11,449 bases of DNA, from IMG/VR virus record IMGVR_UViG_2703718771_000002. One strand, given 5' to 3'. Below the pieces are notes generated by a model that was not told where the DNA came from, did not search any database, and was given only the letters and a program-made list of their open reading frames with translations. This document shows, one piece after another, positions 5,331 through 6,080 of this stretch. This DNA comes from a virus (taxonomy: Duplodnaviria; Heunggongvirae; Uroviricota; Caudoviricetes). The first letter of the stretch is position 1, and every line of letters starts with the position of its first letter. A program made the translations under genes and the position numbers.

Positions 5331-5582
5331 ATGGAATTTCATGAAAGTGCGATTTGTGATTTTCGCGCTAACGCAAATTCAGTAAAACCACAGCCAATTG
5401 CAGTTCTTTTAAAAACAATGGGTGCGTGGGCTGTTTTATGCTTCGCCGCTGACGACACTGACGCAAGAATGGCAATAGGACAAGAGATGGAGATGGACCC
5501 GACAAACGATGAATTCATAATTTATGGCGCTCCATCTAATTACTTACTTGATACCTGCAACATTTACAACAAGGCTGCCTGA
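5331..5582 (+). CDS. Hypothetical protein, 83 aa, first gene after N (ral/sieB-equivalent position)
   Basis: ATG 5331 with SD GAGGTG 4 nt upstream. No family recognised. Confidence 0.55.
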   Translation: MEFHESAICDFRANANSVKPQPIAVLLKTMGAWAVLCFAADDTDARMAIGQEMEMDPTNDEFIIYGAPSNYLLDTCNIYNKAA

Positions 5583-5629
5583 TGGTGGCCTTTATTTTTG
5601 GCATAAACAACAGAATAAACACAGCACTG

Positions 5630-5657
5630 TGTATTCATTCCAACGAGTGAATACACG
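5630..5657. other. Inverted repeat: 9-bp stem GTGTATTCA / TGAATACAC with a 10-nt loop
   Basis: Perfect 9-bp arms at 5630-5638 and 5649-5657 in the untranslated gap between the 5331 ORF and cIII. No T-run follows. Confidence 0.4.
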
Positions 5658-5718
5658 GAGCAATGTCGCTCGTAACTGAACAGGAGCCGACTTGTTCTGA
5701 TTATTGGAAATCTTCTTT

Positions 5719-5744
5719 GCCCTCCAGTGTGAGGGCTTTTTTAT
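5719..5744 (+). terminator. Intrinsic terminator inside the early-left operon (tL1-like, presumably overridden by N)
   Basis: Stem GCCCTC / GAGGGC, 6-nt loop, then TTTTTTAT. Confidence 0.6.
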
Positions 5745-5808
5745 ATGCATACCAATAACGCTTCACTCGAGGCGTTTTCGTTATGCAATCAAATATAAGG
5801 AGTTACCC

Positions 5809-5943
5809 ATGATGCACTTTCAGCTCGCGGGTAGCGGCGTCATGTCCGCTTTCTACCCGCACGAATCTGAATTATCACGCCAAGTTAAACAATTAATCAG
5901 AGCAGCAAAGAAACAACTGGAGGCGTTATGCGCAATGAAATAG
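5809..5943 (+). CDS. cIII: cIII-like small protein (44 aa), putative FtsH/HflB inhibitor
   Basis: ATG 5809 with SD AAGGAG 6 nt upstream. The central segment ESELSRQVKQLIRAAKKQL resembles the lambda CIII amphipathic region (ESLLERITRKLRDGWKRL) as recalled. Position matches lambda cIII. Confidence 0.5.
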   Translation: MMHFQLAGSGVMSAFYPHESELSRQVKQLIRAAKKQLEALCAMK

Positions 5944-6080
5944 CCATTAATCACCAGATGCTTCGTGCTGCACAGAACAAAGCAGTAATAGCCCGATTTA
6001 TTGGTGATTCAAAAATGTGGCTTGAAGCAAATAAAGCGATGAAATCAGCTATCAACCTTCCGTGGTATCGCAGGAAATGA
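5928..6080 (+). CDS. Small protein (50 aa), kil-like by position and size
   Basis: ATG 5928 with SD GGAGG. Translation MRNEIAINHQMLRAAQNKAVIARFIGDSKMWLEANKAMKSAINLPWYRRK. Overlaps the cIII stop region and the next ORF (ATGA). The resemblance to lambda Kil is from uncertain memory only. Confidence 0.35.
   Translation: MRNEIAINHQMLRAAQNKAVIARFIGDSKMWLEANKAMKSAINLPWYRRK

What the first reader, a model, noticed from the sequence alone, without database searches (positions are those of the whole stretch)
5630..5657. Perfect 9-bp-stem hairpin with a 10-nt loop in the early-left untranslated gap
GTGTATTCA and TGAATACAC form a perfect stem around the loop TTCCAACGAG, with possible extension by flanking C-G and U-G pairs. 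It is not a terminator (no T-run). At the DNA level it could be a protein-binding dyad. At the RNA level it could be an RNase III-type processing site or a transcript-stabilising element.
Basis: seen in the sequence. Interest (0 to 1): 0.35.

Follow-up and report, generated by a model that had tools for sequence, protein, structure and literature searches.

The report
Conserved hairpin flanking phage sRNA PreS
The hairpin is real and is an evolutionarily maintained RNA stem-loop in the early-left transcript of lambda-like phages; its 3' foot coincides with the 5' end of the recently described phage small RNA PreS (LPR1), so it most likely marks where that RNA is cut out of the long transcript.

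Summary
The inverted repeat exists, one base left of the stated coordinates (arms 5629-5637 and 5648-5656). As pL-sense RNA it extends to a 14-bp stem (5627-5640/5645-5658) with a CAAC loop, -23 kcal/mol. The window is an HK106-like lambdoid early-left operon, + strand = pL sense: N, orf83, hairpin, then cIII. A 2024 preprint describes the Hfq-dependent lambda sRNA LPR1/PreS (88 nt plus a 68-nt processed form, ending at tL2a). Its primers place PreS +1 at window G5658, the last nucleotide of the extended stem. The preprint text read here does not mention the hairpin. In about 250 related loci the hairpin occurs in six sequence types (lambda/HK97, P22, a P22 variant, ES18, BTP1 and one more). 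All sit in the same register between invariant flanks. Nine of 11 core pairs show compensatory changes, the G.U pairs fit only the pL-sense strand, and a U.G/U-A apex never varies. The lambda-type hairpin never occurs without PreS. Best reading: it is the 5' processing and insulating stem-loop of the preS module, and after cleavage it caps the upstream mRNA. The nuclease is unproven (RNase III favoured in part by analogy with DicF). A DNA dyad or a terminator is not supported.

The parts
5627..5658 (+). The hairpin as pL-sense RNA. 14-bp stem 5627-5640/5645-5658 (perfect 9-bp core 5629-5637/5648-5656) with CAAC loop 5641-5644. The conserved 11-bp core is 5629-5639/5646-5656.
   Evidence: Covariation. 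CM hit at 5613-5676, 71.8 bits, the only one in the window.
5613..5626 (+). Conserved 5' flank GAATAA(A/G)CAC...GCAC. GC 5624-5625 can pair with GC 5660-5661 to form a weak lower stem. In P22 and mEp043 the TAA of this motif coincides with the annotated end of the upstream CDS.
   Evidence: Alignments A1/A2. Folds. 22-position inverted repeat 5619-5640/5645-5666, 77% complementary.
5658..5743 (+). PreS (LPR1) sRNA homologue. The 5' end GAGCAATGTCGC is at 5658. SL1 is GAGC/GCUC (5658-5661/5668-5671), SL2 is 5678-5697, and the seed region is about 5693-5710. 84 of 88 positions are identical to lambda LPR1.
   Evidence: Primers P810, P1103/P1104 and probe P843 of bioRxiv 10.1101/2024.10.31.621285 map here. 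Text of the preprint.
5719..5742 (+). Intrinsic terminator GCCCTCCAGTGTGAGGGC followed by TTTTTT, equivalent to lambda tL2a. This is the 3' end of PreS.
   Evidence: Terminator scan. Annotated as a terminator in HK106 and HK97 and as 'tL2a' in phage O276. The preprint states that LPR1 ends at tL2a.
5331..5582 (+). Upstream ORF (83 aa, hypothetical, HK106 gp42-like). Its mRNA would end with the hairpin after cleavage.
   Evidence: No Pfam hit.
5809..5943 (+). cIII, the next gene downstream of the PreS module in this phage.
   Evidence: Pfam PF08134, E = 1.1e-29. HK106 annotation.

Best explanation
The hairpin is the conserved 5'-flanking stem-loop of the preS (lpr1) small-RNA module of lambdoid and P22-like phages, and it acts as RNA on the pL (early-left) transcript. 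Shown: it is an autonomous 11-14 bp stem-loop maintained by compensatory evolution. It is fixed in register one nucleotide upstream of the invariant PreS 5' sequence GAGCAAU. The lambda-type form is never found apart from PreS. Inferred: PreS has no recognisable promoter of its own and is made only when pL is active, so it must be excised from the polycistronic pL transcript. An endonuclease cuts at the 3' foot of the hairpin (window G5657|G5658) and creates the 5' end of the 86-88-nt PreS. I favour a single RNase III nick at the junction between the upper stem and a weak lower stem formed by the flanks (GCAC with GAGC). This is the geometry I recall for phage T7 intercistronic sites. It also parallels DicF, where RNase III makes the long form and RNase E the short form. 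After the cut the whole hairpin stays on the 3' end of the upstream N-orf83 (ral in lambda) mRNA, where it would block 3' exonucleases. The freed GAGC then pairs with GCUC to form PreS stem-loop 1. RNase E later trims at the AU-rich GUAACUGAAC to give the 68-nt form. The hairpin also insulates PreS folding from whatever gene lies upstream in these mosaic genomes.
For: The window + strand is the pL sense: the HK106 annotation has the pL promoter, N, cIII and kil all on +, and Pfam finds N and cIII. The preprint defines LPR1/PreS between ral and ea10, about 88 nt plus a 68-nt processed form, ending at tL2a, expressed only in the lytic cycle. Its cloning and T7 primers start at GAGCAATGTCGC, which is window 5658, and its T7 template spans exactly 88 nt in lambda. 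Its full-deletion primer keeps the hairpin up to ...ACACG. Six hairpin sequence types fall in one register. On 21 distinct sequences 92.5% of cells are paired, against 28-46% when the 3' partner is slid. Nine pairs carry double changes, and the covariation score is 0.674 against at most 0.124 for slid controls and 0 of 500 shuffles. RNAalifold independently returns the same 11-bp helix, a 1-nt linker and PreS SL1. In all seven representatives folded, the + strand is more stable than the - strand. Conserved U.G pairs (columns 18-45 and 27-36) would be A.C on the other strand. Hairpin types reassort with PreS types: mEp043 has a P22-type hairpin with a lambda-type PreS. The hairpin is nevertheless always present. 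A scan of 2.9 M viral contigs for the lambda-type hairpin not followed by G found only one point variant of PreS. No sigma-70-like promoter was found near it. DicF precedent: the 5' end of the 190-nt species is made by RNase III and that of the 53-nt species by RNase E, and the authors suggest RNase III processing may stabilise the upstream mRNA. In the window the full helix spans 22 positions, the length quoted for the RNase III valley.
Against: No RNA end-mapping or rnc/rne data exist for this site in anything I could read. The PreS +1 comes from primer design plus an ~88-nt Northern band, not from a mapped 5' end. In types B-E the helix above the putative cut is only 11-12 bp, and the lower stem is 3 bp with a mismatch. 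The two positions that would lie between staggered RNase III cuts are a mismatch and a U.G there. In vivo RNase III sites usually have both positions paired with at least one G-C. The constant stem length may simply reflect common descent. The invariant flanks could be conserved for PreS function or as recombination joints rather than for a lower stem. Phage O276 carries an IS903 in the 5' arm and is still a deposited complete phage genome, so the hairpin is not essential for phage growth.
Confidence: 0.6

Rival explanations
1. The hairpin is only a passive structural element. It would act as an insulator that keeps variable upstream mRNA from pairing with PreS, and/or as a 3'-exonuclease barrier for the upstream mRNA. 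The PreS 5' end would be set by another nuclease (RNase E, RNase G or other) that reads the PreS sequence, not the hairpin.
For: The module is found behind many different annotated upstream genes: ral, gp45, ORF87, gp53, an HNH endonuclease and a Nun-like protein. An insulator therefore makes sense. The stems are stable (-13 to -20 kcal/mol) but short for RNase III in types B-E. O276 tolerates loss of the 5' arm.
Against: A pure barrier or insulator would not need to sit exactly 1 nt from the sRNA start in all six types, nor keep an invariant U.G/U-A apex. From my memory of the published RNase E preference (RN|WUU), the sequence at the end (CG|GAGC) is neither AU-rich nor U at +2. A 1-nt linker between two helices is a poor single-strand site.
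Confidence: 0.25
2. The hairpin acts during transcription as a pause, attenuation or Rho-blocking hairpin in the untranslated stretch after the upstream ORF. It would tune how many polymerases reach tL2a and cIII.
For: It lies a few nucleotides after the upstream stop codon in P22 and mEp043. It also sits between two terminator-like hairpins.
Against: There is no U-tract and the stem is AU-rich. From general knowledge, N-modified polymerase ignores such signals. This reading does not explain the strict adjacency to PreS +1 or the obligate linkage to PreS.
Confidence: 0.07
3. It is a DNA-level dyad bound by a phage or host protein, or a cruciform or recombination joint at a mosaic boundary.
For: It sits at the left edge of a mosaic module. 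Many BLAST matches start at window 5623 or 5658.
Against: The arms are completely replaced between types while pairing is kept, and the flanks are invariant. The lambda-type stem is shared by lambda, 434, HK97, HK106 and Stx phages, which are annotated as distinct phages. Conserved G.U pairs are strand-specific, which a DNA duplex site does not explain.
Confidence: 0.04
4. It is a chance inverted repeat with no function.
For: A perfect 9-bp stem occurs in 33% of shuffled windows of this size.
Against: Covariation across six types, a fixed register and obligate linkage with PreS.
Confidence: 0.02

Closest known systems
LPR1 / PreS sRNA of phage lambda (Silverman et al., bioRxiv 10.1101/2024.10.31.621285)
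   Same: Same locus. Window 5658-5743 is 84/88 identical to lambda LPR1, has the same tL2a terminator and the same position in the pL operon.
   Different: The hairpin lies just outside the annotated sRNA. It ends 1 nt before +1, or includes +1 if the C5627-G5658 pair is counted. It is not mentioned in the parts of the preprint I read or searched, and that text says nothing on how the 5' end is made. In this phage ea10 is absent and PreS is followed directly by cIII.
DicF sRNA of the Qin prophage dicBF operon
   Same: An Hfq-dependent sRNA embedded in a lambdoid early-type operon and excised from the polycistronic RNA. A longer form has its 5' end made by RNase III in the 3' arm of an upstream hairpin, and a shorter form is made by RNase E. 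The 3' end is an intrinsic terminator. The authors suggest processing may stabilise the upstream mRNA.
   Different: There is no sequence similarity. The DicF hairpin is a much longer irregular helix, and the long form is 190 nt, not 88. The nucleases are demonstrated for DicF and not for PreS.
Phage T7 intercistronic RNase III sites (e.g. R1.1); from memory, not tested here
   Same: A stem-loop between cistrons of a phage polycistronic RNA. There is a single cut on the 3' side at an internal-loop junction. This leaves the hairpin on the upstream RNA as a 3' stabiliser, and the downstream RNA starts right after it.
   Different: As I recall them, T7 sites have a well-formed lower stem of several bp. 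Here the lower stem is 3 bp with an A.A mismatch (longer only in the lambda subtype). Cleavage is unproven.
Lambda sib and N-leader RNase III sites (from memory)
   Same: RNase III hairpins in the same pL transcript that control the stability or translation of neighbouring genes.
   Different: As I recall, those are longer helices with double cuts. At sib, cleavage removes a protective hairpin and destabilises int mRNA. Here the predicted cut leaves the hairpin in place.

Membership tests
preS/lpr1 sRNA module of lambdoid phages | Sequence of LPR1 as defined by the authors' primers and probes | tested here: met
   P810 and P843 match the window exactly at 5658 and 5685. P922 has 1 mismatch. 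84/88 identity to lambda LPR1.
preS/lpr1 sRNA module of lambdoid phages | Location in the pL operon with the 3' end at the intrinsic terminator tL2a | tested here: met
   The hairpin itself lies immediately 5' of the annotated sRNA, not inside it.
preS/lpr1 sRNA module of lambdoid phages | Hfq binding, lytic-cycle expression, regulation of dnaN | not testable with these tools
   Reported for lambda only.
E. coli RNase III processing signal | Double-helical substrate of about two turns (~22 bp), or at least ~11 bp beyond the scissile bond | tested here: inconclusive
   Window: 22-position helix, 77% Watson-Crick, with 13 bp between cut and loop. Types B-E: 11-12 bp upper stem plus a 3-bp interrupted lower stem. 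The size criterion is from PMC6212723.
E. coli RNase III processing signal | The two positions between staggered cuts are paired, usually with at least one G-C | tested here: inconclusive
   Type A has U.G plus G-C, so it is met. Types B-E have a mismatch plus U.G, so it is not met. The scoring matrix of that paper is not available.
E. coli RNase III processing signal | rnc-dependent cleavage giving a 5'-phosphate and a 2-nt 3' overhang | not testable with these tools
   No data found in eight relevant literature searches.
Intrinsic (Rho-independent) terminator | G+C-rich stem followed directly by a U-tract | tested here: not met
   The stem is AU-rich and is followed by GAGCAAUGUC. It was not reported by the terminator scan.
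RNase E cleavage site | Single-stranded AU-rich site, preference RN|WUU (recalled from the published TIER-seq motif) | tested here: not met
   At 5657|5658 the sequence is CG|GAGC, in a 1-nt linker between two helices. The motif does fit the region of the 68-nt form (GUAACUGAAC, 5672-5681).
nut site (boxA + boxB) for N antitermination | boxA followed by a 5-bp G+C-rich stem with a GNRA-like pentaloop (recalled) | tested here: not met
   The stem is 11-14 bp and AU-rich with variable 3-5 nt loops. A boxA-like CGCUCGUAA lies downstream of the hairpin, not upstream.
Known Rfam family | Match at gathering score | tested here: not met
   No hit at gathering threshold. Only chance-level hits at E of about 2. 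No tRNA or tmRNA.

The most novel reading that the evidence does not exclude
The hairpin is a dedicated maturation signal whose invariant apex (U.G wobble plus U-A under a small loop) and invariant flanks are read by a specific factor. That factor could be RNase III or an unidentified phage or host protein. Release of PreS, and the stability of the upstream N/ral mRNA, would then be set by that factor's activity. If the factor is RNase III, PreS and its boost of host DnaN would join N, cII, cIII and int (recalled from the lambda literature) in the RNase III-sensitive layer of the lysis-lysogeny decision. This would hold in a module present in about 40% of complete E. coli genomes.
Probability: 0.3. 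Interest if true: 0.6.

Novelty: new member of a known kind. Interest (0 to 1): 0.45.

Why it matters
PreS/LPR1 is one of the first trans-acting Hfq sRNAs shown to help lambda replicate, by raising host DnaN. How it is cut out of the pL transcript is not addressed in the preprint text read here. This analysis supplies a concrete, testable maturation signal. It is an 11-14 bp stem-loop with nine covarying pairs, an invariant U.G/U-A apex and a fixed 1-nt spacing to the sRNA start. It is present wherever the sRNA is, including P22-like Salmonella phages, Stx phages and 2236 of 5426 complete E. coli genomes. It also suggests that the 'gene' for PreS should be drawn about 45 nt longer on its 5' side. 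Deletions designed like the published one leave the hairpin behind, fused to new downstream sequence. For annotation, it explains a conserved unannotated block in lambdoid genomes.

Tried and rejected
- Rfam at gathering and at permissive thresholds found nothing. ARAGORN found nothing.
- The sigma-70 scan showed no promoter that could make 5658 a primary start. By eye, the -10 region would fall in the covarying 3' arm, so I rejected a promoter.
- Coding: the overlapping ORFs have no Pfam hits, and the hairpin types differ in length by 1-7 nt, so I rejected coding.
- The genome-contig scan with the PreS 5' motif returned a few Escherichia and Shimwellia contigs. The rest look like lambda contaminant contigs in unrelated assemblies or chance hits, so it added no diversity.
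- Scans for further hairpin types with other first stem bases found only point variants of type A.
- Papers on P22 sncRNAs (PMC13397905), BTP1 transcriptomics (PMC7067206) and HnrS (PMC13502914) do not cover this locus.
- The RNase III scoring matrix of PMC6212723 is not held, so no quantitative substrate score could be computed.
- The 1980s papers on pL processing sites could not be found in the library. I cannot exclude that an RNase III site near tL2a was mapped then.
- I considered RNase P (cut 5' of a helix) and dropped it. PreS SL1 is only 4 bp and is not followed by RCCA.

Full report
**Observation.** The two arms are present as written, at 5629-5637 (GTGTATTCA) and 5648-5656 (TGAATACAC). 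Folded as + strand RNA, the structure is larger than described. The result is a 14-bp stem (5627-5640/5645-5658) with a CAAC loop. The MFE is -23 kcal/mol for 5615-5670, with z = -6.2. The minus strand folds less well (-20.6, z = -3.75). A perfect 9-bp stem is not in itself improbable, because 33% of dinucleotide-shuffled windows contain one. However, this is the most stable 40-nt local fold on the + strand of the window. No T-run follows the stem.

**Context.** The window is 98.7% identical over 5300-6000 to phage HK106, in reverse orientation. In that record the pL promoter, N, a hypothetical gene, a terminator, cIII and kil all read in the window's + direction. Pfam confirms N (4928-5272) and cIII (5809-5943). 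The hairpin therefore lies in the pL-sense transcript, between ORF 5331-5582 and cIII. It is flanked by terminator-like hairpins at 5571-5592, 5719-5742 and 5757-5781. The same hairpin is present in lambda between ral and ea10, and in 434, HK97 and several hundred lambdoid and Stx phage records. The region is found in 2236 of 5426 complete E. coli genomes, with no annotated feature in the records listed. The terminator at 5719-5742 is annotated 'tL2a' in phage O276.

**The key link.** A 2024 preprint (bioRxiv 10.1101/2024.10.31.621285) describes LPR1, renamed PreS, an Hfq-bound lambda sRNA.
- It lies between ral and ea10 and ends at tL2a.
- It is seen as an ~88-nt band plus a stronger ~68-nt processed band.
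- It is made only in the lytic cycle.
- It activates host dnaN translation.

The preprint's primers define its 5' end as GAGCAATGTCGC, and its T7 template spans exactly 88 nt in lambda. In the window that 5' end is G5658, the last nucleotide of the extended stem and two nucleotides past the perfect core. The window's PreS (5658-5743) is 84/88 identical to lambda's. The authors' full deletion keeps the hairpin up to ...ACACG. In the sections I read and the term searches I ran, the preprint says nothing about the hairpin, a promoter or the nuclease that makes the 5' end. A later review adds nothing on this point.

**Comparative evidence.** I anchored on the invariant PreS 5' sequence and collected about 250 genuine loci from phage records and IMG/VR. 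Every one has a stable hairpin ending 1-2 nt before GAGCAAU. The only exception is phage O276, where an IS903 has replaced the 5' arm. A few single-mismatch variants also occur. The hairpins fall into six sequence types:
- A: lambda, HK97, 434, Stx phages and this window.
- B: P22, mEp043.
- B': one compensatory A-U to U-A flip relative to B.
- C: ES18.
- D: BTP1.
- E: IMG/VR contigs only.

MAFFT places all types in one register between invariant flanks, (C)GAAUAAGCAC on the 5' side and GAGCAAU on the 3' side. On 21 distinct sequences:
- 92.5% of cells form standard pairs, against 28-46% when the 3' partner is slid by 1-3 columns.
- Nine pairs carry changes on both sides.
- The covariation score is 0.674, against at most 0.124 for slid controls, and 0 of 500 shuffles reach it.

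RNAalifold was given no structure. It returns the same 11-bp helix, in which 9 of 11 pairs are compensatory, then a 1-nt linker, then the invariant PreS stem-loop 1, GAGC/GCUC. The middle seven pairs change freely. The apical U.G wobble and U-A pair never change type (U.G in 20 of 21 sequences, U-A in 21 of 21). In all seven representatives folded, the pL-sense RNA is more stable than its complement. The conserved U.G pairs would be A.C mismatches on the other strand. This points to an RNA of the pL sense rather than a DNA dyad or an antisense RNA. Hairpin types and PreS sequence types reassort, for example mEp043 has a P22-type hairpin with a lambda-type PreS, yet the hairpin is always there. 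A scan of 2.9 million viral contigs for the lambda-type hairpin not followed by G found only one point variant of PreS itself. A covariance model of hairpin plus flanks hits the window once, at 5613-5676 with 71.8 bits.

**Mechanism.**
- Shown: the hairpin is a selected RNA structure. It abuts the assigned 5' end of an experimentally detected sRNA. It belongs to the same mosaic module as that sRNA.
- Inferred: no promoter-like site lies upstream, and the would-be -10 region lies in covarying stem positions. PreS appears only when pL is on. PreS is therefore excised from the pL transcript, with the 5' cut at the foot of the hairpin.
- Consequences of the cut: the upstream product would end in a hairpin with a 1-nt tail, which from general knowledge is a poor substrate for 3' exonucleases. 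The GAGC released from the weak lower stem (GC 5624-5625 with GC 5660-5661) can then form PreS stem-loop 1.
- The 68-nt form fits a cut in the AU-rich GUAACUGAAC (5672-5681).

**Which nuclease?** The position at the base of a duplex, in a 1-nt linker and in a non-AU context (CG|GAGC), argues against RNase E. That judgement relies on my recollection of the RN|WUU motif. The position argues for a duplex-specific enzyme.
- In favour of RNase III: in the window the whole helix spans 22 positions, the length quoted for the RNase III valley. The cut would lie 13 bp below the loop. In type A the two positions between the predicted staggered cuts are U.G and G-C.
- Precedent: the closest case is DicF in the Qin prophage. 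RNase III makes the long species by cutting the 3' arm of an upstream hairpin, RNase E makes the short one, and the authors suggest processing may stabilise the upstream mRNA.
- Against RNase III: types B-E have only an 11-12 bp upper stem, a 3-bp interrupted lower stem, and a mismatch plus U.G at the inter-cut positions. This is unlike typical in vivo RNase III sites.

I therefore commit to 'processing and 3'-capping stem-loop of the preS module' at about 0.6. Within that, RNase III is the single most likely enzyme but is unproven. The main rival (0.25) is that the hairpin is only an insulator or exonuclease barrier and another enzyme sets the end.

**Rejected readings.**
- Intrinsic terminator: no U-tract and an AU-rich stem.
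- nut boxB: wrong stem and loop.
- Coding sequence: no family hits, and the types differ in length by 1-7 nt.
- DNA-binding dyad: the arms are wholly replaced while the flanks are invariant, and one type is shared by phages annotated as distinct.
- Chance: excluded by the covariation.
- Known RNA family: no Rfam hit, no tRNA.

**Novelty and limits.** PreS is known. In the literature I could search, the hairpin next to it is not described. Its kind is familiar: an intercistronic processing or stabilising stem-loop next to an operon-embedded phage sRNA. I therefore rate it as a new member of a known kind, of moderate interest. I could not reach the 1980s mapping papers on pL transcript processing, so an old report of a processing site near tL2a cannot be excluded. 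No RNA-end data were available, so the PreS +1 rests on the authors' primer design and band size.

Noticed in passing
window 5571-5600: A terminator-like hairpin (AAGGCTGCCTGATGGTGGCCTT followed by TATTTTT) overlaps the stop codon of ORF 5331-5582. The same T-rich tail and downstream sequence precede the hairpin in lambda, just after the ral stop. I do not know whether it corresponds to a named pL terminator.
   Followed up: partly
window 5746-5787: A long imperfect hairpin (19-nt arms, 79% complementary, 4-nt loop) includes the second, weaker terminator (5757-5781). It ends 22 nt before the cIII start codon. On length it looks like a better RNase III substrate than the hairpin under study. 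It may relate to the reported RNase III stimulation of cIII translation (recalled, not checked).
   Followed up: no
window 5667-5675: PreS nucleotides 10-18, CGCUCGUAA, differ by one base from the nut-site boxA sequence CGCUCUUA as I recall it. They also form the 3' half of PreS stem-loop 1. This is possibly coincidental.
   Followed up: no
L163 (phage O276, NC_049951.1) about 1-420: An IS903 transposase gene ends just upstream of the hairpin loop and has replaced the 5' arm. This is a natural hairpin knock-out with PreS and tL2a intact.
   Followed up: partly
window 5678 and 5737: The window's PreS differs from lambda LPR1 by A to G at 5678, in the stretch where the 68-nt form should begin. 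It also lacks the GA between the terminator stem and the U-run.
   Followed up: yes
L158 (P22) 401-500; L005 (ES18), L006 (BTP1) 601-705: P22-like Salmonella phages carry a diverged PreS homologue. The first 19 nt are nearly identical, the rest is about 74-87% identical, and each has its own terminator. In P22 it lies upstream of gene 17, elsewhere upstream of cIII. It is not among the ten P22 small RNAs listed in PMC13397905.
   Followed up: partly
window 5613-5626 and homologues: The motif CGAATAAGCAC is conserved behind unrelated upstream genes. In P22 and mEp043 its TAA coincides with the annotated end of the upstream CDS. In HK97 it follows gp45's TAG in frame. In lambda and this window the stretch CACTG appears duplicated. 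It looks like the left recombination joint of the module.
   Followed up: partly
window 1143-1190 and 5823-5866: These are the next most stable 40-nt local RNA folds on the + strand. The second lies at the start of the cIII coding region and includes the perfect 8-bp repeat 5827-5834/5853-5860. Alternative mRNA structures are known for lambda cIII there (recalled).
   Followed up: no
Genome-contig hits L134, L141, L154 and others: The motif scan hit contigs of about 48.4-48.5 kb, some at low coverage, in assemblies of Shewanella and Pseudomonas, and shorter low-coverage contigs in other unrelated genera. These look like lambda DNA contamination rather than real prophages.
   Followed up: no
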